This document shows positions 305 to 56,440 of a DNA stretch of 56,850 bases, piece after piece; within the stretch, counting starts at the first letter, position 1; each line of letters opens with the position of its first letter. Below the pieces are notes generated by a model. The model was not told where the DNA came from. It searched no databases and was given only the letters and a program-made list of their open reading frames with translations. Source of the stretch: a virus (Duplodnaviria > Caudoviricetes); the IMG/VR virus record IMGVR_UViG_3300020156_000033, positions 1 through 56,850 of that record; one strand, 5' to 3'. Both the position numbers and the translations under genes were made by a program.

Positions 305-322
305 GCAGACACGGGAGGGACC

Positions 323-6651: not shown

Positions 6652-6668
6652 CCACGGGAAGGACGGAC

Positions 6669-7050: not shown

Positions 7051-7073
7051 GCACACCCACGGGAAGGGACACC

Positions 7074-8083: not shown

Positions 8084-8201
8084 CTGAAGCTGGTCCACCG
8101 CCCCGGTGCCGACGACCTCTGACCCGGTGGCACGAGCGGGGAGCACACGCCTGCGGGGTGTGCTTCCTGCCCGGATCATCCGGATACGGGAAGGAAGAGA
8201 C

Positions 8202-9110: not shown

Positions 9111-9178
9111 CGAAGCCGGATGCACGGGCGCGGTCCGTGCATCCCCTCCGGTACACCACCGACACGGGAAGGAACACC

Positions 9179-12331: not shown

Positions 12332-12539
12332 CGCGGTTGTGCTGTCTGTGACCCGGTTCCACTAGGGTGGAAGCCGCGCCGCAGCCGGGCAGCCAGGTCA
12401 GAACAGGCCGCAGGGTGCAGGGCTGACCGAGTACCGCGTATCGATCTGCGGCCTGTCGCGTGCGAGCGCCGTGAAGCACACGCCCGAGCGGGGTGTGCTT
12501 CGCGGGGTCCGACACGGGACCGTGAACGGGAAGGACACC

Positions 12540-13285: not shown

Positions 13286-13311
13286 CACACACCGACACGG
13301 GAAGGAACACC

Positions 13312-14632: not shown

Positions 14633-14663
14633 GAAGGGGGCCACCGGAAGGTGGCCCCCTTTC
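14633..14663 (+). terminator. Intrinsic terminator
   Basis: GGGGGCCACC-GGAA-GGTGGCCCCC followed by TTT. Confidence 0.75.
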
Positions 14664-16967: not shown

Positions 16968-17756
16968 ATGGGCACAGGCCGAGCCGGGGCCACGCAGGGG
17001 GGCTACCGGGTCCGCAAGGACGGATCGGTGGCGTTCACGTACACGGAGCTGCACCTCGGCGAGGCACTGACCCACGCCATCTACTGCTTCGAGAAGGGCG
17101 CGCGCATGAACCGCGCCACCTGGCAGCGGGAGGCGCGCAAGCTGGCCGAGTGGGGGGTGTTCTCCCAGGCCAACATCGCCGCCGTCTTCGGCGTCTCCGC
17201 CACCCGCATCCGCCAGTTGGGCATCACCACCCTCAACGGCGCCAAGATGATGCGGGGCCGCTTCTCCCCCAAGTCCCTGCGGTTCCTCGCCCTGTCGATG
17301 CGCGAGAAGCTGACCAAGGGCAAGCACAACCCCCTGTGGGTGCTGGAGGCCGAGATCCGAGGGACGTCGCAGACGGTCATCGCGCGTCTCCTCGGCCTCT
17401 CCTCCAGCACCATCAGCCGCTTGGTACGGGAAGGAAACCTCATCCATGAGCGTCATGCTCTTCGATACCTCGAAGATAACGCCGATGACGAAGGACGTCC
17501 TGAGGAGAGCGTGGGAACTGAGCACGCCGGAAGCGACGCCGCTGGCGTTCACGCCGGAAGTGCCCCGGGCCCTGAAGCACCTCGAACAGGGCAGCCCGCT
17601 GGTCACGCTGGGCACGTTTACCGAGGTCCCGGGGATCGCCACCCTGTCGCAGCCGCAGATCCGCAGCCGCGCGGACGCGCTGACCATGCTGACGTCGGCG
17701 TTCCGCCTGGCCTGGCAGCAGGAGACGGGCCGCCTGCGTCCGCACCCGACGGGTGA
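16968..17756 (+). CDS. Double helix-turn-helix DNA-binding protein (3' end overlaps polymerase gene)
   Basis: RBS GGAGGTAGGGC; SQANIAAVFGVS and SQTVIARLLGLSSSTISR. Confidence 0.72.
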   Translation: MGTGRAGATQGGYRVRKDGSVAFTYTELHLGEALTHAIYCFEKGARMNRATWQREARKLAEWGVFSQANIAAVFGVSATRIRQLGITTLNGAKMMRGRFSPKSLRFLALSMREKLTKGKHNPLWVLEAEIRGTSQTVIARLLGLSSSTISRLVREGNLIHERHALRYLEDNADDEGRPEESVGTEHAGSDAAGVHAGSAPGPEAPRTGQPAGHAGHVYRGPGDRHPVAAADPQPRGRADHADVGVPPGLAAGDGPPASAPDG

Positions 17757-19611: not shown

Positions 19612-19643
19612 CACACACCGACACGGGAAGGAAGCGCACAGCT

Positions 19644-21267: not shown

Positions 21268-21291
21268 CACACCACCACGGGAAGGACGCAC

Positions 21292-25122: not shown

Positions 25123-25131
25123 GGTCCTTCC

Positions 25132-26174: not shown

Positions 26175-26191
26175 GCCCGTGTCTCCTTGTG

Positions 26192-34300: not shown

Positions 34301-36321
34301 TCCCAGGACATGGCCAGAGCCGCGACGGCCGACACACCCGCCAGCGCCCAACCCCATCCAGGGATCGCTGAGATGGCCGCTCGCAGCCCAATGGCACCGA
34401 CCGTGGCTCCCCGCATGCCCGTCGCCGCCGCAGCCGTCCCAGCGGCCGTCTGGGCGCCCATGGCACCCATTGCCGCACCGGCCGTCGTCGCGCCCGTGGA
34501 CATGGTGCCGAACGTCTGCGCGGCGAGCACACCCAACCCGCGCAACGAGACGCCGCCGATGGAGGCGGTCTGCGCCGTGACGAACTGGAGGGCCAGCATC
34601 GCCGCCATGGTGGTGGCCAGCGCGATGCGGAAGCCGAGGAAGGCGGCCACGCCCAGGCTGATCAGCGCCACGACCGCGCCGAGCGCCCGGACGAAGGGGT
34701 TGTCCAGCAGGGTGATCAGCTCGGTGACGCCGTTGACCAGCAGTGTCAGCACCGGCACGAACCCCTGGCCCACACCCGCCGCGAAGTTGCGCATCGCGTT
34801 GATCATGCGGGTGATGCTGGCGTCCAGGGTGTTGAAGACGACCGCCGACTCCTCGCCGAGGTAGGTCCCCTGGGCGTAGGAGGTGTAGGCGGTGTTCATG
34901 CTGTCGGCCAGCAGCTGGTAGTTGCCGCTGAGCCGGGACACCATGTTGATGTCACGGACGTTGGCCATGCCGAGTTCGGTCATGACCTGGCTGGCACTGC
35001 CGCCCGCGTCGCGCACGCCCTCCAGGCCCTGGATGAACCGCATGAAGAACTCGTCGGGGTTGGTCTCCCAGAGCTTCGCGGTCTCCTGGACGGTCATGTC
35101 CATGACCCGGGCGTAGATCGCCAGGTTGTCGTTGACGCCCATGACGGCGTTGTCGATGTCGGCGAAGATGCGCTCGGTCGAACCGCGCGCCGCCTCCGGC
35201 GCGACCCGCAGGGAGGCCAGGGCCGAGGACAGGCCGAGCACCGACTGCGTGCTCAGGCCCGCCTGGTTGGCCGCCGCCGCGATCTGCTCGGCCACGCCCA
35301 GGATGTCGGTCTCCGTGGCCGCCGAGTTGTCGCCGAGTTCGGAGACCGAGCTGGCCAGGTTTCGGTAGTCGGCGGGGAGCACACCCAGCAGGTTGGAGAT
35401 CCGGCCGAAAGACTTCGACGCCTGCTCGGCGGTGACGTTGGTGGTGGCCGCGAACTCCGCGACCACCCCGGTGAAGCCCTCCAGGTCCCCCGCCGCGATG
35501 CCCATCTGCGACCCGAAGCTGGCGATCTCGCTGATGTCCTCGAAGGCCAGGGGGATCTCGGTCCCCATGTCCATCAAACCCTGGCGCAGTTCACCGAGCT
35601 GGGCGTCGGTGGCGTCGGTGGTGCGCTGCACCTGGGCGAAGGCCACCTCGTACTCGCGCGCCGCCTGCACGGCGGCCACCGGCCACGCCACCAGCGCCTG
35701 GGCCGACTGCTGGTAGACCCCGACGAGGTCGTACATGGCGTAGCGCAGCGCCATGGTGTGCTCGATGGTCTCGGCCATGCCCGCCGCCGCGCGGGTGTCG
35801 GCCTGCGCCTTGGCGTCGCTGGCCTGGGCCATCTGCGTCATCTGGTTCTGGAGCTGCGTGCCCGACTGCCCGGCCTGGGCGGTGAGGCTGTTCATCGTCC
35901 GCAGGCTGGCGGAGTAGGTGTTCACCGCCCCGGCCATCTGCTGGTAGAGGCCGAGCGTGTTGCGCAGCGCGCTGGCCTCCTTGTCGCTCATCCCCTGGAC
36001 GGAGGACAGCGACCGGCCCATCTGCTCCAGCGCGGTGTTGAAGTTCTGGCTGCTCTGCGCCGCCGTCGCACTGGAGCGCGCCAGCTTGTCCGTGGCCGTG
36101 GCGTAGGCCGCGACCGACGAGGTGAGCTGCTGGTACAGCCGCAGCGTCGCCGACAGCGACGCGGCCTTCTTCTTCTCGACGGCCTCGACGTTGCCGAGGC
36201 TGGTCTGCAACGACCGCAGCGACGTGTCCCAGGCACCGCCGCTCTGCGCGGCCTCACGGGCGGCGGACGTGAACTGCCCGAGGTCCACCCGCACCCGTGC
36301 GGTTGCATCGAAGTCGGCCAC
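31321..36321 (-). CDS. Tape measure protein (1666 aa)
   Basis: GTG 36321 overlapping previous TAG; Ala-rich helical repeats; C-terminal YADGG-IGG-GGPRQD...EFMVNA. Confidence 0.92.
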   Translation of the reverse strand: MADFDATARVRVDLGQFTSAAREAAQSGGAWDTSLRSLQTSLGNVEAVEKKKAASLSATLRLYQQLTSSVAAYATATDKLARSSATAAQSSQNFNTALEQMGRSLSSVQGMSDKEASALRNTLGLYQQMAGAVNTYSASLRTMNSLTAQAGQSGTQLQNQMTQMAQASDAKAQADTRAAAGMAETIEHTMALRYAMYDLVGVYQQSAQALVAWPVAAVQAAREYEVAFAQVQRTTDATDAQLGELRQGLMDMGTEIPLAFEDISEIASFGSQMGIAAGDLEGFTGVVAEFAATTNVTAEQASKSFGRISNLLGVLPADYRNLASSVSELGDNSAATETDILGVAEQIAAAANQAGLSTQSVLGLSSALASLRVAPEAARGSTERIFADIDNAVMGVNDNLAIYARVMDMTVQETAKLWETNPDEFFMRFIQGLEGVRDAGGSASQVMTELGMANVRDINMVSRLSGNYQLLADSMNTAYTSYAQGTYLGEESAVVFNTLDASITRMINAMRNFAAGVGQGFVPVLTLLVNGVTELITLLDNPFVRALGAVVALISLGVAAFLGFRIALATTMAAMLALQFVTAQTASIGGVSLRGLGVLAAQTFGTMSTGATTAGAAMGAMGAQTAAGTAAAATGMRGATVGAIGLRAAISAIPGWGWALAGVSAVAALAMSWDELTGSATDASTKISDSAEALTQAGGGVEGLRQAVATDTAAWRDTGEAIRVIGENSSGAAGGLSEAEQAAQAAQGRLNELGQSMGVAAGESSNMDTASRTAQGGLYAAADGFRVAGEASEEAANRYTGSAAALGSATQDWITQAVLASDEIKAITEDEELYNSFRDMGIDLNEAIAAGLEEEGGATENLRQQLEEAGVSASESSSKMRQFGEMLRQLVPYGTSAGMEANDLAMEIEALGGAIDGQANQVTGAQRANELLGTSMADTGAAGAGAAGGLDAAGSAADAMGDQMQQAQADADALRGALTGFGSATDAWRNAQDAANRRRDGGGGGGGSTSRERTPSGRELDNGAVEAAKKQYDAVRKWAQAQEKAVVDAARRQHEQTVKQAQAQQEAVVKAAEKQHDALVKAMRDYEKQMADAETAAEEQLRAAEETQREAEQLAEESARAEEDAAERKENANKQLEAAIASRQAAELGLANADPQNQVQWQRALEAAIRNEAAAREKAAAAAAEHGKAQNAVTESQKAAEQASKAVLQLTEALEKAQANSAKAQELSAQRQEQSAERLASIQEAAALKSEQIQERSAARLEQIQAQAAATREARETAAQQRYEAAQERRRVLEDEARAATEANNQAASASTAQFAEDATFSLDQYLVELAKIVEAQHNWVTNMLELAGRLPPGVAMELAKLGPEAAPLVQQLVDGTDAQLQTFSGLFMQTTDDGVQGMVDILQGGIPLAEGTAGDMGEQLVYRFLEEMRAGERPVEEIVADYAEEINSLEDVNPVSTADIDTRRGQLALEQQQRALDEADGREIDATADFETGSFWRKWSNFWNALFDNADDLFGWLRRNFRESLGVVAGYADGGWIGGQGGPRQDNILIAASKDEFMVNAHSARKYAGVLEAINNDQLGQYVRGGSAGVSGQAQAWENAQQIQNSASLQARIPDFAASAVRRGPEGGPRIVYDITITNNHPQAEPTSVTTNRVLQYAANLGELG

Positions 36322-36740
36322 TAGCCACGCTCCATCCTCTGGTAGGACTCGCGCCGCGAGGGCAGTCGGTCCTCCGCGAAGACGGTCGTCGGCTGGACCG
36401 TCCTCACCTCGCCGGGCTTGCTCTTCTTCTTCTCGTGGTCGCGGCGGTCCTGCTCCAGGACAGCACACGCATAGCAGAAGCTGGACTCGATCTTAAACTG
36501 CACGCGGTTGTCTGTGCTGTAGGCCAGCCAGACGGGTACTCCGCACTGCCCGCAGGTCTCGGCCTCCAGGATGGTCAGGGCCTGGGCCAGCTTGCGGTCC
36601 GCCGGGGTCCACCCGTCCGAGGGCTGGGCCTCGGCCAGGATGACCAGCGGCGGCACACCCCACTCCCGCGCCGTCTTGATCGCGTTGACGTAGTGGCGGT
36701 TACCCGGCCACGTCAGCGTCTCCGCCAGGAAATCCGGCAT
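36321..36740 (-). CDS. Tail assembly chaperone, downstream ORF
   Basis: Between TAC and TMP; W---DR-LA-A----E---C--CG motif. Confidence 0.75.
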   Translation of the reverse strand: MPDFLAETLTWPGNRHYVNAIKTAREWGVPPLVILAEAQPSDGWTPADRKLAQALTILEAETCGQCGVPVWLAYSTDNRVQFKIESSFCYACAVLEQDRRDHEKKKSKPGEVRTVQPTTVFAEDRLPSRRESYQRMERG

Positions 36741-37461
36741 CGGCCATCTTGTCGAAGACGTTGCCGACCATCATCGCGCGGCTGGAGGCGTTGATCAGCT
36801 TGACCCACTCCATGGGGATGAGCTTGTGGCGCAGGCCCTCCAGGTTCTCGCGGGTGAACTCCCCGCTGTGCTCCTGCCCCCGCCCGTTGGTGATCCGATC
36901 GACGCAGGCGATGAACACGTTGCAGATCAGCTCTTCGGAGAGTTCGCCCTGAAGCTGCTCCTGCTCCTCCTTGGACAGCGCCTTCAGCTTGGCGGGGGTG
37001 AAGCCCAACCGCTCCTCGACCTCCTTGCGGATCGCGTCGGCCTCCCGCTGTTCGAGGCTGTGCATGTGGAAGGTCAGCGAAGAGCCCACGATCTCGGACT
37101 CCAGGTCGTCCTTCTCCAGCGACAGGTTCTTCTTCTCCACCGTCAGCGCCTTGACCATGTTCTCCGCCGGGACTTCCTCGCCGATCCCCAGCGTCATCGT
37201 CTCGCGCTCCTGCTTGGCGCGGGCCTCGGCCTGGCGGACCTCCCTGTCGATCTCCTGGAGGCGCTTGACGATCTCGGACCGCCGCGCCCCGCGCTCGACA
37301 TCGAGGAACACCGTTTCGGAGAAGGTGATCCTAGTGGCCTTCTTCTGCACCCATTCGGACAGGTCGAAGCTGTCCATGGTGGTGGCGGCCTCGACCTGCT
37401 TGCGGACGTCCTCGACCAGCTTTTCGGAGATGCCGTCGAAGCCGTGCCCCTGCTCGCTCAT
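36700..37461 (-). CDS. Tail assembly chaperone
   Basis: Position after the tail-tube gene; overlaps next ORF by 41 nt. Confidence 0.75.
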   Translation of the reverse strand: MSEQGHGFDGISEKLVEDVRKQVEAATTMDSFDLSEWVQKKATRITFSETVFLDVERGARRSEIVKRLQEIDREVRQAEARAKQERETMTLGIGEEVPAENMVKALTVEKKNLSLEKDDLESEIVGSSLTFHMHSLEQREADAIRKEVEERLGFTPAKLKALSKEEQEQLQGELSEELICNVFIACVDRITNGRGQEHSGEFTRENLEGLRHKLIPMEWVKLINASSRAMMVGNVFDKMADAGFPGGDADVAG

Positions 37462-37495
37462 GTGCTGCTCCCGTGTCCACCCGTGTCATGAGGAA

Positions 37496-37536
37496 GGCCC
37501 TGCACTCCCGGACACGGGCGACGGGAGTGCAGGGCC
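37496..37536 (-). terminator. Terminator hairpin after tail-tube gene; loop complementary to GACACGGG box
   Basis: Perfect 15-bp stem, 11-nt loop UCGCCCGUGUC on minus strand. Confidence 0.75.
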
Positions 37537-37552
37537 AGCTTATCGCCGTTAT

Positions 37553-37795
37553 CTACGGCGCGGTAACGGTGATGTCGCTGGTGTCCGACGCACCGGCGTA
37601 GACGGCGGTGACGGTCGCGGTGCCCGCAGCGACACCGGTCACCGTACCGTCGGCGTCCACCGTGGCCACGCCAGGCGCCGACGACGTCCACGTGGCCGAA
37701 TCGTCCACGTTCACCGGGGTGCCGCCGTCGACGCTGTACGCGGCGGCCAGTTCCGTGGTGGCCCCTACCTCGACTGAGGCGCTTGCCGGGGTCAC
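37553..37795 (-). CDS. Bacterial Ig-like (Big_2) domain, probably fused to the major tail protein by -1 frameshift
   Basis: (SL)TVTPASASVEVG...TWTSSAPGVATVDADGTVTGVAAGTATVTA; no RBS. Confidence 0.85.
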   Translation of the reverse strand: MTPASASVEVGATTELAAAYSVDGGTPVNVDDSATWTSSAPGVATVDADGTVTGVAAGTATVTAVYAGASDTSDITVTAP

Positions 37796-37797
37796 CG

Positions 37798-38364
37798 TCA
37801 GGGAGAAGGGACGACCTCGACCCAGCCGTCGGAGGAGACGCCCTGCGCGTAGAACCGGATGTCGGACTGGACCGGCCCCTCGTTGTCGTTGATGGAGTTC
37901 GGGTCGCCCGACAGCACCTGGAAGACCTGCACCTCGTCACCGGCGACGATGGGCTCACCGGCCCGCTTGCCGACGCGCTTGATGAGGTAGCCCGGCTGCA
38001 TGGGCTTCTTGAACGCCTCGTAGGACTGCATGTAGACCGAGGCGGTGTCGGCGCTGTCCCCCTCGCGGAAGAACTGGATCTGCGCCTCGTAGTTCTTCCG
38101 GGTCGGGGTCTCCACGTTGGAGTCGTCGCAGATGGACGCGGAGTCGTCGGTGTCGCGGTCGGTCCACCCGAGGGTGAAGGGGTCCACGACGGCGCAGGAC
38201 ACGTTCAGCACACCCGAGCCCTGGACGGCGGGGTCGGCGGTGAAGTCCGGCGGGGTCCAGGCCGCCGTCAGCTCGGCGACCGTGGGCGCGTTGATGTCGG
38301 CGATCGCGTCGTATCCGGCCGCCCAGTACACGGACACGTTGGGCGGCAGCATCTTCTGGGGCAA
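37798..38364 (-). CDS. Major tail (tube) protein
   Basis: RBS GAGGAGG; ADINAPTVAEL...SCAV...NYEAQIQFFR; gene order. Confidence 0.85.
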   Translation of the reverse strand: MPQKMLPPNVSVYWAAGYDAIADINAPTVAELTAAWTPPDFTADPAVQGSGVLNVSCAVVDPFTLGWTDRDTDDSASICDDSNVETPTRKNYEAQIQFFREGDSADTASVYMQSYEAFKKPMQPGYLIKRVGKRAGEPIVAGDEVQVFQVLSGDPNSINDNEGPVQSDIRFYAQGVSSDGWVEVVPSP

Positions 38365-38408
38365 GGTTCCTCCTCATTCGCGTGGCCACGCGATACGCAA
38401 GTGTATCG

Positions 38409-38849
38409 CTAAGTGTTGACCAGATTGTTGTCAACGATCCCGCTGAACGACAGCGGTATCGCGTACCGCACGGGCACACCAGAGGGGTCGATCGGTGTTC
38501 GCGGGTTGGGGTTGCCGTCCTCGGACAGCTCCCCCTGCCCGGCGGGTTCGTAGCCCTCCAGGAGGTCGCGCACGCGGTTGGCCACGCTGCGGGCGATGGC
38601 GCCCGTCGGACCCACGCACTGCACGATGAAGGGGACACGCTTGCTGTGCCCGCGCACGCCGCAGATGCCCGCGTAACCGAAACCGGCGGGCAGCTTGCCG
38701 CCCCACCACACCACGAGGTAGGGCTTGAGCAGCCCGTCCTGGCGCGGCAGGTCCACGTAGTCGGGCACACCGCCGTCGTAGACGCCGGTCCCGGGGATGG
38801 TCTTCAGGCGGACGACGATCTGGTCCTGCCACTCCTGGAGGCTGCTCAC
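38409..38849 (-). CDS. Tail terminator-like protein
   Basis: VYDGGVP...PYLVVW; position before the tail-tube gene. Confidence 0.7.
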   Translation of the reverse strand: MSSLQEWQDQIVVRLKTIPGTGVYDGGVPDYVDLPRQDGLLKPYLVVWWGGKLPAGFGYAGICGVRGHSKRVPFIVQCVGPTGAIARSVANRVRDLLEGYEPAGQGELSEDGNPNPRTPIDPSGVPVRYAIPLSFSGIVDNNLVNT

Positions 38850-39262
38850 GTGATCCCCCGTCCCAGTGCTTCGGTGAGCTGCGCCCGCGTTGACAGGAAC
38901 GCGGTGTAGACCGCCAGCATCGGTTCGATGCCGTCGCGCGTGCCGAACTCCTGGAAGGGGGCGTAGTAGGGGCGGTCGGCGTCCCAGCCGAAGACCAGGG
39001 TCAGCACATCCCCCTGCTCCTCCAGCCGGTGCATGGCCATCGACTGCATGAGCCCGGTGTCCACCCGGCTCCGCAGCTTGATCATCTGCTCGGCCTCGGC
39101 ACCCAGCTCCAGCATGCGGGTGCGGATGCGGTTGCGCGAGGTGTTGAGGTAGTCGATGACCCACGCGGTGAGCGGCTGGTCGAACTGCCCCACCGGGCCG
39201 GTGTAGTAGTAGCGCTTGCCGCCGGAGAAGTCGTAGTTGTAGGACCACTCAACCCTGGCCAT
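38846..39262 (-). CDS. HK97 gp10-like neck/tail completion protein
   Basis: RVDTGLM...YAPFQEFGT...IEPM. Confidence 0.78.
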   Translation of the reverse strand: MARVEWSYNYDFSGGKRYYYTGPVGQFDQPLTAWVIDYLNTSRNRIRTRMLELGAEAEQMIKLRSRVDTGLMQSMAMHRLEEQGDVLTLVFGWDADRPYYAPFQEFGTRDGIEPMLAVYTAFLSTRAQLTEALGRGIT

Positions 39263-39701
39263 CGGGGTGCTCCTCCACGTCCACGTCGCACAGGATGTTG
39301 CGCAGCCAGGGGTTGGAGGAGTTCAGCGGGTTGCGCACGCGGAAGACGAAGGTCTCCAGATCGGGGTCGTCCGGGCAGTCGAGCACACGCACGACGGTGC
39401 CGATCGGAATGGGGGGCGTGTCCTTCAGCGGGATCTGGAGGCGCAGGGCGTGCATCGTGATCGGGTCGTCGGCGGCCACACGCGAGCGCGCGCGCCAGTC
39501 CTTGTTCGGCTGGCAGCGCGCCTGCCCGGTCCACAGGACCTCGACGGGCGCCGTCACCTCACCGGTGTCGGGGTCCCACACCGCCGCGCCGTCGTCGGAC
39601 AGCGACAGCCGCACCGTGGCCAGCATGAACCCGGCGGGCACCGAGCGGTGGTGCCTGGTCCACCGCGCGTCCAGCGACGGCCGCAGGTTGAGCGGGCTCA
39701 T
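39249..39701 (-). CDS. Head closure / head-tail connector (DUF6093-like)
   Basis: WDPDTG...WTGQAR-Q...LQIP...DPDL. Confidence 0.7.
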   Translation of the reverse strand: MSPLNLRPSLDARWTRHHRSVPAGFMLATVRLSLSDDGAAVWDPDTGEVTAPVEVLWTGQARCQPNKDWRARSRVAADDPITMHALRLQIPLKDTPPIPIGTVVRVLDCPDDPDLETFVFRVRNPLNSSNPWLRNILCDVDVEEHPDGQG

Positions 39702-40078
39702 CGCGGACCGCACAGGGGCGGGCGCGGGTAGAACGGCACGACCTCGAAGAACGCCTCGCCCTCGGCCGCGTCGTCCTCCTCGGCCTGGTCCCACAGGTCG
39801 TTGGCCCGCGCGCGCAGCGCCTGCGCGACCTTGGACCCGTCGGTCTGAAGGTCCTCGGTCTTGATGACCTTCGAGATCAGCGCCTCGGACACGGCGATGG
39901 CGCCGATCGCCGAGGACGCCGCGCGCTTGACGCTGCCGCTGTAGATGTCGAGCAGCGCCTGGAGGTGGTCGTCGGGGAAGATGTAGGACGCTTCGCCGTC
40001 GCCCTCCCAGTCCACTTCCTCGGTGTCGGGGATGAGCGCGCGGACCTTGCCGAGGTCGGTGCTGAAGTCCACTGCCAC
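39698..40078 (-). CDS. Head-tail adaptor
   Basis: GKVRALIPD...IF-D..L...AA; follows the capsid gene. Confidence 0.75.
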   Translation of the reverse strand: MAVDFSTDLGKVRALIPDTEEVDWEGDGEASYIFPDDHLQALLDIYSGSVKRAASSAIGAIAVSEALISKVIKTEDLQTDGSKVAQALRARANDLWDQAEEDDAAEGEAFFEVVPFYPRPPLCGPR

Positions 40079-40139
40079 GTGTCTGCCCTCCTGGGTCGCT
40101 GCCAGCTTAGACCAGCACGCGTGTGCTGGTCATGGCATG

Positions 40140-40225
40140 AGAAGAGGGGCCGCCCACGGGAAGGTGAAAGCGGCCCCTCTGGTCTCACCACCAGCTGCAC
40201 CAGGAGATCAACAGCCCTCTCCTGG
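40140..40225 (-). ncRNA. Candidate sRNA or structured capsid 3' UTR; terminator loop antisense to CCACGGGAAGG
   Basis: -10-like TACCCT (40230-40235), hairpin CCAGGAG/CTCCTGG, 11-bp stem 40143-40153/40170-40180 with loop UUUCACCUUCCCGUGG. Confidence 0.6.
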
Positions 40226-40260
40226 GGCAAGGGTACTACATGCGGAGCCGGATACCGCTA

Positions 40261-41391
40261 TCAGGTGCCCGAGCCGTTGGACACGATCGTCGGGGACGGG
40301 TCCAGGCCCTTGGCCCCGACGAAGTGCCGGACGCGGTACTGGACGTCGTCGTTGAGGAACGACCCCTGGAGCGGGTCGATGTCCCCGCCGCCCAGAGCGC
40401 GGCCCTGGTCGCCGGAGATCCGCAGCTCAGGGGTCTCGTGCCCGCGCAGGAACCCGGTGACCAGCGCGGTCCGGCCGCTGATCCCGGTCTCGCCCCCGGA
40501 GGGGACCAGGTACCAGGTGGTGTCCGCGTTGACCGAGGTGTCCAGGACCGGCAGCCAGTACTCGACCACGACCGACACCGGGAAGGGCATCCCGGGGTTG
40601 GTGCGGGTGGTCTCGACGGAGCCGTCGGGCAGCGTCACCTCGCGGGTGACCTCCACCGCGTTCAGGATCTCCTGGGCGACGATCTGGAGCGACGGCGGGA
40701 CCACCAGGGCGAAGTTGCGGACGGTGACCGGACGGCCGTTGACCCGGCGGTCGGTGACCTGGCGCATCGCCTCGACCAGCGACTCCCGGGTGAGCGGCGG
40801 GTTGCCGTCCATCAGGTTGCCGTTGCTGGCGTTGAAGAACGCCGGGTTCGGGCCGGTGGTGGTGGCCAGCACACCCGCCGTCAGGATCTGCTCGGTCTGG
40901 CGGGCCAGCTCGGCCATGGCACCGGGCATCTGCTGGATGAGCTGGTACTCGTCGTTGATGAACGCTTCCATGCTGAAGGGGAAGCGGCCACCGTGCTTGC
41001 CGATCTGGTACTGCCCGCTCGCCGTGTCGTACTCGAAGACCGGGTACTCGGTCAGCTCGGGCACGCGCGGCAGCATGGTCATGCCGTTGGTGTCGCCCAG
41101 CGTCGGGGCGCCGCCGTTCACGGCGGGCAGCAGGCCGGTGTCCAGCCGGAACTCGCGCCAGGTCTGCGGCTTGAAGTCCGGGACGGCGACGCGCCGCGAG
41201 TACTGCGGCCAGGTGACGGGGAAGGCATCGTACTGCGCCCGGACCTCGTCCTGCGTGATGCGGCGGAACAGCTCCGGGAACTCGTCGGAGGTGGAGACCG
41301 CCTCCTTGAGCCGGGCCTGCGCAACCCAGTCGCCGCGCATGGCGGAAGCGAGGGTGCGCGCGGTGCCCAGCACCTTCTCAGACGTGATCAT
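40261..41391 (-). CDS. Major capsid protein
   Basis: STSDEFP, VPDFKP, VPELTEYP, K-G..F-FS-EAFIND, LVVPPSL, YRVRH; RBS GAGAGG. Confidence 0.9.
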   Translation of the reverse strand: MITSEKVLGTARTLASAMRGDWVAQARLKEAVSTSDEFPELFRRITQDEVRAQYDAFPVTWPQYSRRVAVPDFKPQTWREFRLDTGLLPAVNGGAPTLGDTNGMTMLPRVPELTEYPVFEYDTASGQYQIGKHGGRFPFSMEAFINDEYQLIQQMPGAMAELARQTEQILTAGVLATTTGPNPAFFNASNGNLMDGNPPLTRESLVEAMRQVTDRRVNGRPVTVRNFALVVPPSLQIVAQEILNAVEVTREVTLPDGSVETTRTNPGMPFPVSVVVEYWLPVLDTSVNADTTWYLVPSGGETGISGRTALVTGFLRGHETPELRISGDQGRALGGGDIDPLQGSFLNDDVQYRVRHFVGAKGLDPSPTIVSNGSGT

Positions 41392-41421
41392 TCTCAATCC
41401 TCTCGTATGCAGTCGTCGCGA

Positions 41422-41817
41422 CTACGCGGCCGGGTCGGGCGACTGGCACACGCGGACGATGGTGCGGCCGTCCTTGGTCATCCCCAGCTTGTGGCCGAAC
41501 AGCTTGCCGCCGGTGGGGAGGGTACCGACCAGGGGGGCCTCGGTGCCGATGTAGACCTGCGCGCCGATGGCCAGCGCGTCACCACCGGTGATGGTGAAGG
41601 CCCACGCACCGTTGAGGGCGACGGAGGCGTAGCCCTCGTCGTTGAACCCCTGGTAGGTGAAGTCGGGGGCGTCGGGCGTGTCCTGGCTGGCCGTGGACCG
41701 GGTGGTCTGGGCCACGCCCACGATGGAGCCTACGCGCACGGGGTCGCCGCTCTCGGTGCCCTCGGGCACCGGCAGCGAGATGTAGGTGCCCTCCTTGAAG
41801 ACCTCGTTGCGCGCCAT
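41422..41817 (-). CDS. Capsid cement / decoration protein (DUF2190-like)
   Basis: MARNEVF...SGDPVRVG-IVGVA-T. Confidence 0.75.
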   Translation of the reverse strand: MARNEVFKEGTYISLPVPEGTESGDPVRVGSIVGVAQTTRSTASQDTPDAPDFTYQGFNDEGYASVALNGAWAFTITGGDALAIGAQVYIGTEAPLVGTLPTGGKLFGHKLGMTKDGRTIVRVCQSPDPAA

Positions 41818-42926
41818 TACTTGCTACCTCCGAAGATGGTGTTGTTGAGCGAGCGCAGCTGGGTCGCGTACCCGTTGGGTCCGCCCAGCGCGCCGGACTC
41901 GCGGAGCACACCACCCGGGGCGCGCGAGGTCAGCGACTCCTGGATCTCGTCCACCAGCGCCTGCTCGGCGGCGATGGCGGCGTCCAGGTCCTGGCCGGGC
42001 TTGTAGTCGTTGGCCAGCCGCTTGCGGCTGGCGGCGGGCAGGCCCGAGCCGTCGAGCTTGTCCACGACCTCGCCGTAGCTCAGCGCGGACGCGTCGGCGG
42101 AGGCGTCCTTCTCCTCGCCGCCGGTGTCCCCGGCCTTCTCCTCGCCGCCGCCGGTGGCGACGTCGTTGGGACCCTGGCCCGGCGCCTGGTGCATCGGCCC
42201 CGTGCTGGCCGACGGCGTCGCGGCGCGGTCCTCGGCCTCGGTCAGGCGCTTCTCCAGCGCTTCCATCTTCTGGGCCATCGAAGTCATGGTCTCGGACACC
42301 GAGGTGATCATCTCACCCAGCCGGTTCATGCCCACCTTGTCCGATTCCTTCAGCTCGAAGATCGGCGCGGCCTTGGGCGCGGACTCCCCGCCACCCTGGC
42401 GAGCGCTTTCGGCGATGCTCACAAGTTTCCCTCCTGCACCCGCTCGGGTAACGACGTCGACTGACAGACCTTCTACGATCTCGGTCACCACGAGGAGCCC
42501 GGTGTCGGGGTTCTCCTCGGTGATCCCGATGGCGCGGATGGACAGGCCGACGGTATCGGGTAGTTGGTTCTCGGACAGATCCGCGACCAGGTCGCGGGCC
42601 TCGCCCAGGAACTGCACGGTGGCGAAGAGCCCGTGGCCGTCGGCCCCGTTCTCATACACCGCGTCCTCCAGGAGCACACCCGCCAGGTCGCGCACGGAGC
42701 GCTCGGGGCGCTCCCACTCCTCGCTGCTGGTGGGGTGGTCCAGGTACATCTGCATTCCCTGGCGGAAGACCTTGGCCTCCGCCGCCTTCGCCAGCACCGC
42801 CGCCGGGTAGAACCCGGAACTGCCGCTGACGTCGGCCTCGATGATGAGCACACGCCACTTGCCCGCAGTGCTCCCCCGCTTCGCGGGGCGCGTGGCCTCT
42901 CTCAGTTCTGCGCGCACGGTGCCCAT
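41817..42926 (-). CDS. Capsid maturation protease-scaffold fusion
   Basis: GSSGFYP, YLDHP, RSVRDLAG, GLSIRA, SVDVVT-AGAGGK, coiled C-terminus. Confidence 0.82.
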   Translation of the reverse strand: MGTVRAELREATRPAKRGSTAGKWRVLIIEADVSGSSGFYPAAVLAKAAEAKVFRQGMQMYLDHPTSSEEWERPERSVRDLAGVLLEDAVYENGADGHGLFATVQFLGEARDLVADLSENQLPDTVGLSIRAIGITEENPDTGLLVVTEIVEGLSVDVVTRAGAGGKLVSIAESARQGGGESAPKAAPIFELKESDKVGMNRLGEMITSVSETMTSMAQKMEALEKRLTEAEDRAATPSASTGPMHQAPGQGPNDVATGGGEEKAGDTGGEEKDASADASALSYGEVVDKLDGSGLPAASRKRLANDYKPGQDLDAAIAAEQALVDEIQESLTSRAPGGVLRESGALGGPNGYATQLRSLNNTIFGGSK

Positions 42927-42946
42927 CGTCCTCCTCGTTCTCGGAA

Positions 42947-42979
42947 ATCATAGCGGTGTTACCAGGTTTTCGGTAACAC
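42947..42979 (-). promoter_or_regulatory. Late promoter candidate with upstream palindrome
   Basis: GTGTTACC-N8-GGTAACAC, 3 nt, then -10 TATGAT and RBS GAGGAGG. Confidence 0.55.
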
Positions 42980-42981
42980 GG

Positions 42982-44424
42982 TTAGTCCGTGTGTGCCTGC
43001 AACCCCTCGTCGCGGAGTTCGTGGTCGCCGTAGCTGGGCGGTTCCACCTGCGCCATGCCGTCCGCACCGGGGGCCGGAGCGGGCGGCGCGGGCTCGGGGG
43101 GCTCCTCCCTGTCGCTGTCGTAGTCCAGCGCGCGCAGCAGCATCGCGCGCACCTCCTCGGGATAGAGCATCCCCGTCCCGTCGGCCATGGTGATGGCCTG
43201 GATGAGGCGGTGCGTGGGCTCGGTGGTGACCGGCGGCCACACGACGTCCCACTCGAAGCCGAGCAGGTCGGCGATCTGGCGGCCCGCCGCGTCCCACAGG
43301 CGCTGGCGCGCCTTCATCGCCATGCCCGTCACCGGCTCCAGCGATTCGCTGTTGGCCGCGTTGCCCGAGGGGTCGCTGAGCATGACGGGCAGCGGCACCT
43401 CCAGCCCGGCGGCCACGAGCGCGGCCAGCGCCCGGCCCTCGTTGAAGTTCACCGAGGAGGAGTTCTTGCCGAGCGCCGACAGGTCCTGCCCGGCCCCGAG
43501 CACGGCCGTGTTGCCGACGTTGGCGTAGCCGCCGGTCATCGGGTCGCGCAGCGGCTGGTCGGCGATCTTGGACGCCACCGCCTTCTGCCCCTTGCCGGTC
43601 GCGCTGGTGACCTTCCACGCGTACTGCGCGTAGGACTTCAGCAGCTTCTTGCAATCCTCCAGGAACTCCTTGTACGCCTGGCTCCAGAAGATGACGGGGA
43701 AGACGTCGGGCAGGCCCCAGGTCCAGCCCGCGAGCTTGTTGGCCGACACGGTGACCACGACCTTGCTGTAGTCGACCGCGTCCCCGGCGATCGTCTTCGG
43801 CTTGTCGGCACCGTCGTCCTTGTAGCGGTCGTAGGAGGGGTACCACTCGCGCCGCTGGACCGCCTCGGGCGCGGCGGAGGGGTCGGCGAAGGGCCGGACT
43901 TCCTCGTTCCAGCTGCGCCGGTAGAACCACACGTCCTCGTCGTCGCCCGGAGCGGTGATCGTGGCCGTGAGCTGCCGGAACGGCAGTCGCTGGATCTTCT
44001 TGCGGGCGACGTCGACCAGGAAGGACACGTTGCCGTCGCCCGCCAGGCTGCGCTCCAGCTCGTACTGGGCCTGCGGCGAGGCGAGCACACGCACCAGGGA
44101 GGGGGTGCGCCACGCGTCGCCCTCGGCCCCGATCTGCACGCCCTCGCCCCAGATGTAGGACGTGCGCACGGCCACGGCCCGCTTGATCAGGGGGTTCACC
44201 GTGATGAGCGCCCGGCAGGTCTCGGCCGTGCTCTGGATGTTGGACAGCGGTATCTGGTCGTCGCCCTCGGTCAGCCCGCCCAGCGGCTTCCACCCGAGGT
44301 CGTCCACCGCGAGCGCGACCTGCGTCATGAGGTCGGAGTTGCGCTCCTCCAGCAGCTCCATCTGGGTCTCCAGGTGCCGGACCGTCTCGGTCAGCTGCGT
44401 GTGCTCGGTGGCCTCGGTGGTCAT
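42982..44424 (-). CDS. Portal protein
   Basis: ATG 44424 after GGAGAGG; NPLIKRAV..R..YIWG, DGN-F, WGLPD; position after terL. Confidence 0.85.
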   Translation of the reverse strand: MTTEATEHTQLTETVRHLETQMELLEERNSDLMTQVALAVDDLGWKPLGGLTEGDDQIPLSNIQSTAETCRALITVNPLIKRAVAVRTSYIWGEGVQIGAEGDAWRTPSLVRVLASPQAQYELERSLAGDGNVSFLVDVARKKIQRLPFRQLTATITAPGDDEDVWFYRRSWNEEVRPFADPSAAPEAVQRREWYPSYDRYKDDGADKPKTIAGDAVDYSKVVVTVSANKLAGWTWGLPDVFPVIFWSQAYKEFLEDCKKLLKSYAQYAWKVTSATGKGQKAVASKIADQPLRDPMTGGYANVGNTAVLGAGQDLSALGKNSSSVNFNEGRALAALVAAGLEVPLPVMLSDPSGNAANSESLEPVTGMAMKARQRLWDAAGRQIADLLGFEWDVVWPPVTTEPTHRLIQAITMADGTGMLYPEEVRAMLLRALDYDSDREEPPEPAPPAPAPGADGMAQVEPPSYGDHELRDEGLQAHTD

Positions 44425-44469
44425 CGCCTCTCCCGTGTGCTCGGTTCCGGCCAGTCTAGTCCCGGGCAT

Positions 44470-44570
44470 GAAGAAGGCCCGGTCGCTGTTCCCCCTTCAG
44501 CGACCGGGCCTTCACCGGAGTTGGCCTCCGATACCCCCACCTGTACAGACTCTCGTCGTATGTACCGGTA
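44470..44570 (-). ncRNA. Candidate sRNA 2 (about 100 nt)
   Basis: -10 TATCAT 44576-44581, two hairpins, perfect 16-bp terminator stem 44473-44513. Confidence 0.5.
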
Positions 44571-44607
44571 GGGACATGATACCACCCTACCCGAGCGGTA
44601 GGTGAAG

Positions 44608-44733
44608 ATGCGGATGGCCCCGGCGGGTGCCAGCCCGCCGGGGCCGGGAACGGACCTGACTGGAGAGGTAGAGCCGTTCCGATGGAGGACCCCTGGCGCT
44701 GGAGGTAGGGCAGTACCGGAGCGCCGGAGCTTC
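44608..44733 (-). ncRNA. Candidate sRNA 1 with anti-RBS loops
   Basis: -10 TATACT 44739-44744; loops CUGCCCUACCUCC and CUACCUCUCCA; 12-bp terminal stem 44616-44645. Confidence 0.65.
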
Positions 44734-44772
44734 CCACGAGTATAGCAGTAACCGGGTGGTAGCATGGAGTCA

Positions 44773-44824
44773 GAAGGCCCGCGCCCCGGTCCTCCTCAGA
44801 GGAACCCCCTTGGCGCGGGCCTTC
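44773..44824 (-). terminator. Terminator after terL
   Basis: 13-bp inverted repeat GAAGGCCCGCGCC/GGCGCGGGCCTTC. Confidence 0.7.
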
Positions 44825-44835
44825 ACTGTGCCCGG

Positions 44836-52103: not shown

Positions 52104-52118
52104 GGGGGAACCTCCTGT

Positions 52119-52553
52119 TCAGGCTTCGTCGTCAAGCACGTACTGGACGGTGGCGCCCGGGGCCTCGTCGGCGGGGCTGGTCGGCATCTGCTCGATGGCG
52201 GCGTACACCGGGTCGAACATCATCGCGAGCGGGTTGTGGTCCAGCATCATGTCGCGGATGCGGCGGCGCATCTCCCCGGCACCGCGCCGGTAGGCGGCCT
52301 CCTCGGTGTCGGAGGGGGACTCGGTGGTGAAGACCTCGCCGCCGTGGCAGCGGGCCACGCTGCACGGCCACAGGATGGGCGCACGCTCCCCGGAGCAGAC
52401 CGAGCACACCCACTGCGGGTCGCGCTCGTAGGGGACCCAGGCGGGGATGTGGTAGGCCGGGGGCAGCTTCCTGCGCTCGGCGGGGGTCATGTCGGCCAGC
52501 TCCTCGTAGCCGGGCTGGCCGGGCGCCTCGATGAGGCGGGCTCGCGGGTCCAT
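52119..52553 (-). CDS. Hypothetical protein
   Basis: RBS AGGAGG; H-P...CSVC...WPC. Confidence 0.75.
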   Translation of the reverse strand: MDPRARLIEAPGQPGYEELADMTPAERRKLPPAYHIPAWVPYERDPQWVCSVCSGERAPILWPCSVARCHGGEVFTTESPSDTEEAAYRRGAGEMRRRIRDMMLDHNPLAMMFDPVYAAIEQMPTSPADEAPGATVQYVLDDEA

Positions 52554-52568
52554 GGGGGAACCTCCTGT

Positions 52569-56364: not shown

Positions 56365-56440
56365 TCGGAGCATGGCGCAGGGCCCCTAGAGGACCCTGCG
56401 CCGTGTGCTGGACACATGCACCAACGGGAGGGAAGCACTG

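What the first reader, a model, noticed from the sequence alone, without database searches (positions are those of the whole stretch)
40140..40235. Late RNA after the capsid gene displays the exact antisense of the replication-gene RBS box
Seen: the 11-bp stem 40143-40153/40170-40180 presents the 16-nt loop UUUCACCUUCCCGUGG on the minus (late) strand. CCUUCCCGU pairs perfectly with all nine ACGGGAAGG boxes, extending to 10-12 bp at 6652, 7056, 9163, 13296, 19622 and 21275. Inference: the capsid 3' UTR, or a short sRNA from TACCCT, occludes the RBS of polymerase, recombination and other genes. This would give an RNA-only early-to-late switch in which each target's address is written into its RBS.
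Basis: partly seen in the sequence, partly recalled or inferred. Interest (0 to 1): 0.92.

Follow-up and report, generated by a model that had tools for sequence, protein, structure and literature searches.

The report
Late-RNA hairpin loop mirrors early-gene RBS box
A very stable hairpin just after this phage's capsid gene shows, in its loop, the exact mirror image of a ribosome-binding motif shared by nine early replication genes, and two groups of unrelated mycobacteriophages have the same layout, so it may be an RNA switch that silences early genes late in infection.

Summary
ACGGGAAGG occurs 10 times, always on the + strand (0.56 expected). Nine copies lie 5-12 nt before starts of + strand early genes, including DNA polymerase, a Sak4-like annealing protein and, via a 9-codon uORF, an exonuclease. 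The tenth lies in the 16-nt loop of an 11-bp hairpin 70 nt after the minus-strand capsid gene, so the late RNA shows its complement. The hairpin is very stable (-34.7 kcal/mol, z -5.5) and CUUCCC is fully exposed. It is the only one of 23 strong hairpins with such a match (about 8e-4 expected).

The regulatory reading remains unproven. Relatives are only about 50% identical and lack both box and hairpin. An early-operon hairpin looks like a paralogue, so the match could be inherited.

New support comes from cluster K mycobacteriophages. Their SAS motif is a box of the same kind with unknown function. The single reversed SAS copy sits in the apical loop of a conserved hairpin, at two different sites in two subgroups, both in noncoding DNA upstream of the virion genes. 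Five other K phages lack it.

My best reading, at 0.45, is a stabiliser hairpin whose loop also acts as a trans anti-RBS.

The parts
40143..40180 (-). Hairpin B core: an 11-bp G+C-rich stem around a 16-nt loop, UUUCACCUUCCCGUGG on the late (minus-strand) RNA.
   Evidence: Energy -34.7 kcal/mol, z -5.54.
40137..40188 (-). Extended hairpin B. It adds an outer GUGAGA/UCUCAU helix. In the minimum-energy fold the apex is a CAC/GUG mini-helix closing a CUUCCC hexaloop.
   Evidence: The same fold appears within the whole 185-nt intergenic RNA.
40156..40164 (-). Anti-box. The + strand reads ACGGGAAGG, so the late RNA reads CCUUCCCGU. This is the tenth and only non-RBS copy of the box.
   Evidence: Opening cost is 0.0 kcal/mol for CUUCCC and 2.34 for the 9-mer.
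40200..40225 (-). Hairpin H1 (CCAGGAGA / UCUCCUGG). In the fold of the full intergenic RNA its 3' arm pairs instead with the SD of the next gene.
40110..40131 (-). Hairpin H3: a 9-bp stem with a 4-nt loop. It contains the genome-wide AGCACAC motif.
40261..41397 (-). Major capsid protein gene. The stop is at 40263-40261. The likely ATG start is at 41391.
39698..40078 (-). Next late gene (126 aa, phrog_18316), with a GGAGG SD 8 nt before its GTG start.
6654..6662 (+). Box 1, 6 nt before ATG 6669 (106-aa protein, phrog_4392).
7059..7067 (+). Box 2, 6 nt before ATG 7074 (76 aa). It has the longest complement to the loop, 12 nt.
8186..8194 (+). Box 3, 7 nt before ATG 8202 (126 aa).
9164..9172 (+). 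Box 4, 6 nt before ATG 9179 (113 aa).
12526..12534 (+). Box 5, 5 nt before ATG 12540. That ATG opens a 9-codon uORF whose TGA overlaps the TTG start (12566) of a PD-(D/E)XK exonuclease gene.
13297..13305 (+). Box 6, 6 nt before ATG 13312 (Sak4-like / AAA_24 ssDNA-annealing protein).
17426..17434 (+). Box 7, 11 nt before ATG 17446 (family A DNA polymerase).
19623..19631 (+). Box 8, 12 nt before GTG 19644 (165 aa, phrog_1981).
21277..21285 (+). Box 9, 6 nt before ATG 21292 (90 aa, the last gene of the + strand block).
311..319 (+). Box variant ACGGGAGGG before ATG 323. It would pair with the loop through one G.U pair.
56424..56432 (+). Box variant ACGGGAGGG before ATG 56441.
14634..14661 (+). 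Hairpin A in the early operon, before the primase/helicase gene (14683). It has a 12-bp stem and a GGAA loop. On the same DNA strand it shares with hairpin B the apex CCAC[C/G]GGAAGGTG and the trailing TCTGGTCTC, so it is a probable paralogue.
37496..37536 (-). Hairpin C, downstream of the major tail gene, with a 15-bp stem. Its late-RNA loop UCGCCCGUGUC complements GACACGGG. That sequence is the 5' half of the extended box and is also repeated twice just downstream in cis.

Best explanation
Hairpin B is a very stable structure in the untranslated stretch after the major capsid gene. It probably has two roles.

1. It marks and protects the 3' end of the abundant capsid message, or attenuates read-through into the next genes.
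2. Its exposed C/U-rich apical loop acts in trans as an anti-RBS.

In the second role, the CUUCCC hexaloop seeds a G-C-rich duplex with the box ACGGGAAGG. The duplex grows to 9-12 bp once the weak CAC/GUG helix opens. The box is the Shine-Dalgarno region of nine, or with G.U pairing eleven, early genes. Once late RNA accumulates, ribosomes would be excluded from those messages, or the messages exposed to decay.

Shown: the complementarity, the structure, loop accessibility, the RBS position of the boxes, the late/early strand layout, and favourable energetics.

Inferred: that the RNA accumulates, that pairing happens in the cell, and that it represses.
For: - The match is exact and non-random. 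There are 10 of 10 copies on one strand against 0.56 expected.
- Only this hairpin, of 23 tested, has a loop complement of 10 nt or more to any start region. One of 300 shuffles does as well.
- The seed is displayed. CUUCCC costs 0.0 kcal/mol to open, in a hairpin with z -5.5.
- Duplex energies of -18.2 to -27.1 kcal/mol exceed the summed opening costs. They also exceed the -9.5 to -9.8 kcal/mol computed for the same boxes against a recalled 16S tail motif.
- The targets are early replication and recombination genes. The hairpin follows the capsid gene on the opposite, structural strand.
- Other genes use GGAGG or GAGAGG-type SDs, so the loop could tell box genes apart.
- Box and hairpin occur together only here. 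Four of 4 viewable relatives at about 50% identity lack the intergenic hairpin, and 3 of 3 relatives of 41 kb or more show no box enrichment.
- Cluster K mycobacteriophages give an independent analogue.
  - Pope et al. 2011 noted one reversed SAS in each K1 phage and left the function of SAS open, 'RNA or protein'.
  - I find that reversed copy in the apical loop of a hairpin.
  - The hairpin is supported across 13 phages. 96.6% of cells pair against 31-50% when partners are slid, and 3 pairs show compensatory changes.
  - The 22-nt stem-loop has 0 of 22 variable columns in 9 K1 phages, against 54 of 149 in the flanks.
  - In Kratiovirus phages the same loop tops a different 15-bp stem at a different site, between tRNA-Trp and the small terminase gene. 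One G-C to A-U compensatory pair is seen there.
  - In Adephagia the site lies in the gene 92-93 gap, where late transcription is reported to start.
Against: - There is no expression or end-mapping data for this phage.
- There is no covariation test. Close relatives could not be retrieved, and relatives at about 50% identity lack both features, which shows co-absence only.
- Hairpin A shares the apex (13 nt, 1 difference) and the only other copy of TCTGGTCTC, on the same DNA strand. The anti-box could therefore be inherited from a hairpin family rather than selected. A plain local alignment of A and B is not significant (score 30 against 27.2 +/- 2.2).
- In the predicted fold only 6 nt are free.
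- There is no U-tract, and the terminator scan did not call the site. A defined 3' end is therefore not assured.
- In cluster K the analogue is not general. Amgine, Keshu, SirPhilip, Yuna and TClif carry 15-19 forward SAS copies and 0, 0, 0, 1 and 0 reversed copies.
- Amgine keeps the SAS while its homologous loop differs. That is a failure of covariation.
- The loop would also pair partly, over about 7 nt, with ACGGGAG-type RBSs of some late genes such as the portal gene and the gene at 37461.
Confidence: 0.45

Rival explanations
1. Hairpin B is only a structural RNA element: a U-tract-poor terminator, attenuator or stabiliser after the capsid gene. It belongs to a small hairpin family with hairpin A. 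The anti-box in its loop is an inherited by-product, because the family's apex descends from a box-bearing intergenic junction. It has no trans function.
For: - Hairpins after the major capsid and major tail genes are the usual layout. Hairpins B and C sit exactly there.
- A and B share CCAC[C/G]GGAAGGTG. These are the only 2 exact matches, with 3 matches at up to 1 mismatch against 0.41 expected.
- They also hold the only 2 exact copies of TCTGGTCTC, each at the end of the 3' arm and on the same strand.
- Hairpin A lies in a typical TAG-CACACCGAC junction next to a box-like TGAGGAAGG.
- Relatives function without this hairpin.
Against: - In A the box-like sequence is 8 of 9 and buried in a 12-bp stem with a GGAA tetraloop. 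In B it is 9 of 9 and exposed in an enlarged loop. That looks like selection for display.
- The A/B alignment alone is not significant.
- This reading does not explain why two cluster K lineages keep an exact anti-SAS invariant in hairpin loops at two different sites.
Confidence: 0.3
2. The pairing is real, but the information flows the other way. Abundant box-bearing early mRNAs, or hairpin A RNA, pair with the loop of hairpin B. That changes termination, processing or stability of the late transcript, or translation of the downstream head-tail genes. The late hairpin is the sensor and the early RNAs are the signal.
For: - In cluster K the anti-SAS hairpins lie upstream of the structural genes, not after them: in the gap where Adephagia late transcription is reported to start, and directly before the small terminase gene. 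That placement suits a cis-regulatory sensor.
- In the window, the full intergenic fold encloses B inside a long-range helix that sequesters the SD of the next gene. Events at B could therefore alter downstream translation.
Against: There is no evidence for alternative folds that depend on loop pairing. Nine dispersed 'signals' acting on one sensor is less economical than one regulator acting on nine targets. Nothing on this was tested here.
Confidence: 0.12
3. The ten copies are double-stranded DNA sites for a phage or host DNA-binding protein, comparable to the stoperators of cluster A phages. The tenth copy is simply one more operator in the late region.
For: All 10 copies have the same DNA orientation. 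Pope et al. draw the stoperator comparison for SAS, but only to contrast the two.
Against: - Nine of 10 copies keep an SD-like distance of 5-12 nt to a start codon.
- In cluster K the odd copy is inverted on the DNA, while in the window it is not. What the two cases share is that the transcript carries the complement in a hairpin loop. That points to RNA rather than DNA.
Confidence: 0.05
4. The match is pure coincidence, in an ordinary hairpin with no link to the boxes by function or by descent.
For: About 0.28 extra copies of the 9-mer are expected per strand. The finding is also post hoc, picked from a whole-genome read.
Against: About 8e-4 copies are expected inside any of the 23 hairpin loops (my arithmetic). 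One of 300 loop shuffles matches the observed complement.
Confidence: 0.05

Closest known systems
Start-associated sequences (SAS/ESAS) of cluster K mycobacteriophages, including their single reverse-oriented SAS (Pope et al. 2011, PMC3203893, passages read)
   Same: - Both are asymmetric conserved motifs that contain the SD core yet are conserved beyond it.
- Both lie a few nt before start codons, on non-structural (early) genes only, in one orientation, with 9-19 copies per genome.
- Many copies are preceded by an inverted repeat. Here those repeats start at 6609, 7001, 8142, 9118 and 12473.
- Both have one odd copy whose complement is carried by the transcript. I show that in K1-type and Kratiovirus phages this copy sits in a hairpin loop, as it does here.
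   Different: - The sequences differ: ACGGGAAGG here, GGGATAGGAGCCC there.
- The phages are unrelated.
- Here the odd copy keeps its DNA orientation but lies in an oppositely transcribed block, after the capsid gene. In cluster K it is inverted and lies upstream of the structural genes.
- The papers I read do not interpret the reversed SAS as an antisense loop.
6C sRNA of high-GC Gram-positive bacteria (Mai et al. 2019, PMC6486639, abstract read). From recall, also the UCCC-loop sRNAs of Staphylococcus (RsaE, RNAIII).
   Same: C-rich apical loops pair with G-rich mRNA regions through G-C pairs, without a chaperone, and regulate several targets including replication genes.
   Different: - 6C is a host-encoded free-standing sRNA with several loops.
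- Here there is one loop on a phage late mRNA.
- Rfam finds no match to any family in 39600-40700 at E up to 1 except two unrelated sub-threshold hits.
T4 RegB and RegA (review PMC3014915, passages read)
   Same: The logic is the same. A phage factor shuts down early genes after transcription by acting on their translation-initiation regions. RegB cuts GGAG in early SDs, so the 'address' lies in the RBS.
   Different: RegB and RegA are proteins. Here the proposed effector is an RNA loop, and no RegA or RegB homologue was sought.
3'UTR-derived and terminator-loop regulatory RNAs (for example PMC11979758, abstract and section titles read)
   Same: In both, a terminator-type hairpin at the end of a message contributes its loop to regulating another mRNA.
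   Different: In that study the terminator loops act 'likely without base-pairing', depend on Hfq and RNase E, and belong to E. coli sRNAs. Here an exact 9-12 nt complement is proposed to pair.

Membership tests
Canonical intrinsic (Rho-independent) terminator | G+C-rich stem-loop downstream of a stop codon | tested here: met
   The stem is 11 bp (21 bp extended), -34.7 kcal/mol, and starts 70 nt after the capsid stop codon.
Canonical intrinsic (Rho-independent) terminator | Run of U directly after the stem | tested here: not met
   The tail is UCUCAUGCC. The consensus scan of 36000-46000 found 1 terminator-like site (38702-38685) and it is not this one. U-poor terminators in actinobacteria are recalled, not tested.
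SAS-type start-associated box (cluster K sense) | Asymmetric repeated motif that contains the SD core, lies within a few nt of start codons, and has one orientation | tested here: met
   Nine of 10 copies lie 5-12 nt before starts, and all are on the + strand. GGAAGG pairs with the recalled 16S tail motif at -9.5 to -9.8 kcal/mol.
SAS-type start-associated box (cluster K sense) | Restricted to non-structural genes | tested here: met
   All nine genes lie in the + strand replication block. The structural genes are on the minus strand.
SAS-type start-associated box (cluster K sense) | Consensus GGGATAGGAGCCC | tested here: not met
   The box is ACGGGAAGG. It is the same kind of element but not the same family.
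6C sRNA (Rfam family) | Match to the covariance model | tested here: not met
   cmscan of 39600-40700 at E up to 1 gave only Actino-pnp (20.2 bits, threshold 47.7) and RT-15 (16.3 bits, threshold 82), both elsewhere in the stretch.
Trans-acting anti-RBS RNA | Accessible single-stranded seed complementary to the target SD region | tested here: met
   The CUUCCC seed costs 0.0 kcal/mol to open, the complement is 9-12 nt, and duplexes are -18.2 to -27.1 kcal/mol.
Trans-acting anti-RBS RNA | Seed and target conserved together or covarying in relatives | tested here: inconclusive
   No close relative was retrievable. The read-laying table was cut before the relevant rows. In the cluster K analogue the loop is invariant within two lineages, but Amgine shows no covariation.
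Trans-acting anti-RBS RNA | The RNA accumulates and represses its targets | not testable with these tools
   This needs RNA-seq or Northern blots, reporters and toeprinting.

The most novel reading that the evidence does not exclude
SAS-type boxes in actinobacteriophage early genes are RNA 'address labels'. A single anti-box loop displayed on late RNA reads them. This arrangement arose independently in this uncultured high-GC phage (after the capsid gene) and in cluster K mycobacteriophages (K1-type phages near the right genome end, Kratiovirus phages before the small terminase gene). It would give a chaperone-free RNA route that shuts down, or otherwise coordinates, a whole early regulon. It would also answer a question open since 2011: what SAS motifs are for.
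Probability: 0.35. Interest if true: 0.9.

Novelty: new variant of a known kind. Interest (0 to 1): 0.78.

Why it matters
If the loop really pairs with the boxes, a phage would coordinate its early-to-late transition with one short RNA loop. Each target's address would be written into its own ribosome-binding site. T4 achieves this with the proteins RegA and RegB, and no RNA version has been described in the papers I could search.

It would also make the function of SAS motifs directly testable. That function is still called 'not known' in 2024-2025 papers. The reversed SAS hairpin in Adephagia-type and OkiRoe-type phages can be mutated in phages that grow on the laboratory strain M. smegmatis mc2 155.

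Even if the trans function fails, the work documents two things. This phage has a new SAS-like system. The cluster K 'odd' SAS is part of a conserved RNA structure.

Tried and rejected
Searches for relatives
- Megablast of 39000-42000 against phages: no match.
- Exact scans of viral contigs for an extended box and for the loop with its stem: 0 and 0.
- The pattern CACGGGAAGGANNNNNATG matched 105 stretches. All 80 listed have a single match, so no second box-rich genome was found.
- Capsid-based scans of viral, metagenome and genome collections gave relatives only at 50-51% identity, plus one at 29%. The polymerase-based scan reached at most 46%. tblastn against isolated phages stayed below 60%.

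Sequencing runs
- No RNA holder was listed.
- I laid X1-X4 on 20400-40399, to cover box 9 and the hairpin together. The tables of differences were cut, with 640 rows not shown. No row for 21277-21285 or 40137-40190 was printed. This gives no verdict on loop or box variation.

Other checks on the window
- Rfam found nothing relevant.
- The consensus promoter scan gave no support for a TACCCT-driven sRNA.
- A + strand gene behind the tenth box is rejected. The only start is a GTG overlapping the box with zero spacing, in the shadow frame opposite the capsid gene.
- Local alignment of hairpins A and B was not significant. I keep the paralogy claim only on the structure-anchored shared words.
- The loop of hairpin C is not significant on its own (p 0.12).

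Cluster K
- The covariation test failed in Amgine. The SAS is unchanged and the loop differs.
- Five of 5 further K phages have no reversed SAS in a hairpin. One 1-mismatch reverse hit in Yuna was not examined.

Tools and papers
- Supplementary files were not opened. Pope 2011 Figs S3/S4 and Supplementary Table 3 of the 2025 SAS survey may list the reversed sites, and I could not see them.
- In PMC12699233 'antisense' occurs 0 times. Nothing was found in that library.
Full report
WHAT THE WINDOW IS

The window is a whole IMG/VR virus record of 56,850 bp with 68.5% G+C. A 56,751-nt contig of run X1 covers the laid stretch without a difference and closes on itself, so the genome is probably complete.

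Genes on the + strand run from about 55,800, across the ends, to 21,564. They are early or replication genes:
- a PD-(D/E)XK exonuclease
- a Sak4-like/AAA_24 annealing protein
- a primase-helicase
- a family A DNA polymerase

Genes on the minus strand from about 53,000 down to 21,611 are structural and lysis genes:
- large terminase
- portal
- protease
- decoration protein
- major capsid protein
- major tail protein
- tape measure
- endolysin

The nearest retrievable relatives have only 50-51% capsid identity and 46% polymerase identity. One of them was binned with a Nocardiopsis MAG.

THE OBSERVATION

ACGGGAAGG occurs ten times, always on the + strand. Shuffles give 0.56 copies on average and never more than 3.

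Nine copies lie 5-12 nt before an ATG or GTG. The genes behind them are listed under 'parts'.
- Copy five serves a 9-codon uORF whose stop overlaps the TTG start of the exonuclease gene.
- Two one-mismatch variants (ACGGGAGGG) precede the genes at 323 and 56441.
- Other genes use GGAGG, GAGAGG or similar SDs.
- The wider word ACACGGG is common near starts on both strands. By my reading, about 11 of its 23 copies lie next to a start.

The tenth copy is the loop of hairpin B. On the minus strand an 11-bp stem (40180-40170 / 40153-40143) encloses UUUCACCUUCCCGUGG.

STRUCTURE

The minimum-energy and centroid folds agree.
- An outer GUGAGA/UCUCAU helix is followed by the main stem.
- Above it come a UU bulge and a 3-bp CAC/GUG helix.
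- The apex is a CUUCCC hexaloop.
- Energy is -34.7 kcal/mol, z -5.54.

The same fold persists inside the complete 185-nt intergenic RNA. That RNA also contains hairpins H1 and H3. A long-range helix pairs UCUCCUGG with the SD of the next gene.

No U-tract follows B, and the terminator scan did not call it. Rfam has no family for it.

IS IT CHANCE?

I compared the loops (plus 2 nt of stem on each side) of 23 of the 24 perfect-stem hairpins with the start regions of 62 genes.
- B is the only hairpin with a complement of 10 nt or more. Its maximum is 12.
- B matches 9 start regions at 8 nt or more.
- One of 300 shuffles of its loop does as well.
- From, about 8e-4 anti-box copies are expected in all those loops together.

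The match is therefore unlikely to be chance, even allowing for post-hoc selection. The number of targets adds nothing independent, because the boxes are copies of one another.

ENERGETICS

- Opening CUUCCC costs 0.0 kcal/mol, the 9-mer costs 2.34, and the 13-mer costs 5.21.
- Loop-box duplexes are -18.2 to -27.1 kcal/mol.
- Opening the targets costs 4.05-9.39 kcal/mol.
- Net values stay favourable for all eleven sites.
- They are stronger than the -9.5 to -9.8 kcal/mol computed for the same boxes against a recalled 16S 3'-tail motif.

WHAT WEAKENS THE REGULATORY READING

1. Hairpin A looks like a paralogue of B.
   - A (14634-14661) lies in the early operon before the primase gene.
   - On the same DNA strand it shares the apex CCAC[C/G]GGAAGGTG with B. 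These are the only two exact matches in the genome.
   - It also shares TCTGGTCTC right at the end of the 3' arm. These are the only two exact copies of that word.
   - Left flanks are similar too (TGAG.AAG.GGGGCC).
   - A plain local alignment is not significant, but the structure-anchored coincidences are.
   - In A the box-like word is 8 of 9 and buried in a 12-bp stem with a GGAA loop. In B it is 9 of 9 and lies in a widened loop.
   - Descent could therefore explain why the word is present. It does not explain why it is exact and exposed.

2. Relatives give no test.
   - Four of 4 viewable relatives at about 50% identity (L002, L003, L005, L007) start the next gene about 20 nt after the capsid stop, with no hairpin.
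   - The box is not enriched in G001-G003. No other purine-rich repeated start motif appears in G001 or G002.
   - Both features are thus specific to this lineage. That is co-absence, not covariation.

3. No RNA data exist for this phage.

A SECOND LATE HAIRPIN

Hairpin C (37496-37536) lies downstream of the major tail gene and has a 15-bp stem. Its late-RNA loop is UCGCCCGUGUC, which complements GACACGGG. That word is the 5' half of the extended box at 9164, 13297 and 19623, and it also occurs twice just downstream in cis. On its own this is not significant (p 0.12).

AN INDEPENDENT ANALOGUE IN CLUSTER K MYCOBACTERIOPHAGES

The box resembles the start-associated sequences (SAS) of cluster K mycobacteriophages. 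Pope et al. 2011 describe these (passages read):
- a 13-bp asymmetric motif containing AGGAG
- a position 3-7 bp before the starts of non-structural genes
- one orientation
- often preceded by inverted repeats (ESAS)
[quoted passage not shown] Papers from 2024 and 2025 still call the role unknown.

K1-type phages:
- Anaya has 16 forward sites and 1 reversed site at up to 2 mismatches.
- The reversed site (record 59870-59882) lies in the 385-bp gp96-gp97 gap.
- There it forms the 10-nt apical loop CCUCCUAUCC, closed by GCGCGG/CCGCGC inside a 10-bp outer stem.
- The region is conserved in 142 cluster K records.
- In an alignment of 13 phages the two helices pair in 96.6% of cells, against 31-50% when partners are slid. 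Three pairs show compensatory changes.
- In nine K1-type phages the 22-nt inner stem-loop has 0 of 22 variable columns, against 54 of 149 in the flanks.
- One-nucleotide indels in the flanks argue against a coding sequence.
- In Adephagia the anti-SAS word is at 58684-58694, between gp92 and gp93.
- Whether the start lies upstream of the hairpin is not stated in what I read.

Kratiovirus phages (the genus of the K5 phage Kratio):
- The same loop (UGCCUCCUAUCCC) tops a different, perfect 15-bp stem at a different site.
- That site is about 1 kb from the left end, between tRNA-Trp and the small terminase gene.
- The 66-nt element matches 46 records, 28 of them over at least 80% of its length.
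- In 4 of 4 phages aligned the loop is invariant. Omnicron carries a G-C to A-U compensatory pair.
- OkiRoe, Omnicron, Kratio, Adephagia and Validus each have exactly one copy of the anti-SAS word and none on the other strand.

Limits of the analogue:
- Amgine, Keshu, SirPhilip, Yuna and TClif carry 15-19 forward SAS copies and 0, 0, 0, 1 and 0 reversed copies.
- Their homologous hairpin has another loop (C/U-rich in Amgine, Ekdilam and TClif) or is deleted (Yuna).
- Amgine's SAS is unchanged, so loop and box do not covary across the cluster.

An anti-SAS loop is therefore recurrent and conserved within lineages, but dispensable.

WHAT THE THREE CASES SHARE

The DNA orientation of the odd copy differs: it is inverted in cluster K and not inverted here. 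The shared feature is that a transcript of the virion-gene direction carries the complement of the early-gene box in the apical loop of a strong hairpin. This favours an RNA-level meaning over a DNA-site meaning.

VERDICT

- My best explanation, at 0.45, is a capsid-message end or attenuator hairpin whose loop also acts in trans on the box RBSs to turn early genes down late in infection.
- Rivals are an inherited by-product without trans function (0.30), the reverse direction of control (0.12), a DNA operator (0.05) and chance (0.05).
- In mechanism it works like C-rich-loop sRNAs such as 6C. In logic it resembles T4 RegB and RegA.
- It is a member of none of these families.
- I found no paper that proposes an anti-SAS or late-RNA anti-RBS loop. 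Supplements were closed.
- I rate it a new variant of a known kind, with interest 0.78.

Noticed in passing
Mycobacterium phages Anaya JF704106 59845-59902 (L097:12845-12902), Adephagia JF704105 58684-58694, OkiRoe NC_024366 about 1038-1080 (L220:694-738): The single reverse-oriented SAS of cluster K phages lies in the apical loop of a conserved hairpin with compensatory stem changes. It sits in the gp92-93-type gap near the right end in K1-type phages, and between tRNA-Trp and the small terminase gene in Kratiovirus phages. It is absent in 5 of 5 other K phages checked.
   Followed up: yes
L097:12805-12840 (Anaya), alignment A1 columns about 19-52: A second hairpin lies just upstream of the anti-SAS hairpin (GGCCCCGGCGCUCC-GAAA-UGGAGUGUUGGGGCC). 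It shows compensatory changes between phages (CUCC/GGAG against CCCC/GGGG). The whole gap may encode a structured RNA.
   Followed up: partly
window, genome-wide (for example 2326, 11019, 26702, 31107, 34526, 40868, 52403): AGCACAC occurs 73 times, and AGCACACCC is the most over-represented non-trivial 9-mer with 26 copies. From about 26 to 53 kb it lies mostly on the + strand, opposite to the genes. Relatives G001 and G002 instead over-represent GCGCACACGC-type words. This may be a polar DNA motif of Chi type or similar. It is unexplained.
   Followed up: partly
window 12540-12569: Box 5 serves a 9-codon uORF whose TGA overlaps the TTG start of the PD-(D/E)XK exonuclease gene (12566-13285). 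This looks like translational coupling.
   Followed up: no
window 40079-40260 (minus strand): In the fold of the whole intergenic RNA, UCUCCUGG (40207-40200) pairs with the SD region CCAGGAGG of the next gene (start 40078). The helix encloses hairpins B and H3. It may act as a cis brake on translation of the head-tail genes.
   Followed up: partly
window 37462-37540 (minus strand): The loop of hairpin C (CCCGUGUC) can pair instead with either of two tandem GACACGGG words directly before the start at 37461. This is an 8-bp alternative helix or pseudoknot at that gene's RBS.
   Followed up: partly
window 6609-6637, 7001-7036, 8142-8164, 9118-9144, 12473-12501: Five of the nine box genes have a strong inverted repeat 15-40 nt upstream of the box. 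This resembles the ESAS arrangement of cluster K. Two of the repeats (8142, 12473) are built from inverted AGCACAC words.
   Followed up: partly
window 52104-52125 and 52554-52575 (minus strand): The genes starting at 52103 and 52553 share an identical 19-nt leader (tgaacaggaggttccccc + ATG), pointing to a duplicated start region.
   Followed up: no
window 44836-47301 (minus strand): The large terminase is 821 aa. Its profile matches are split (residues 43-217 and 363-799), leaving about 150 unmatched residues. This could be an insertion or an intein.
   Followed up: no
L004:3830-3880: The distant relative (29% capsid identity) also has a hairpin after its capsid gene. Its loop is C-rich (UUAGCCCUCCCGGA) and contains an anti-SD-like CCCUCCC.
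   Followed up: no
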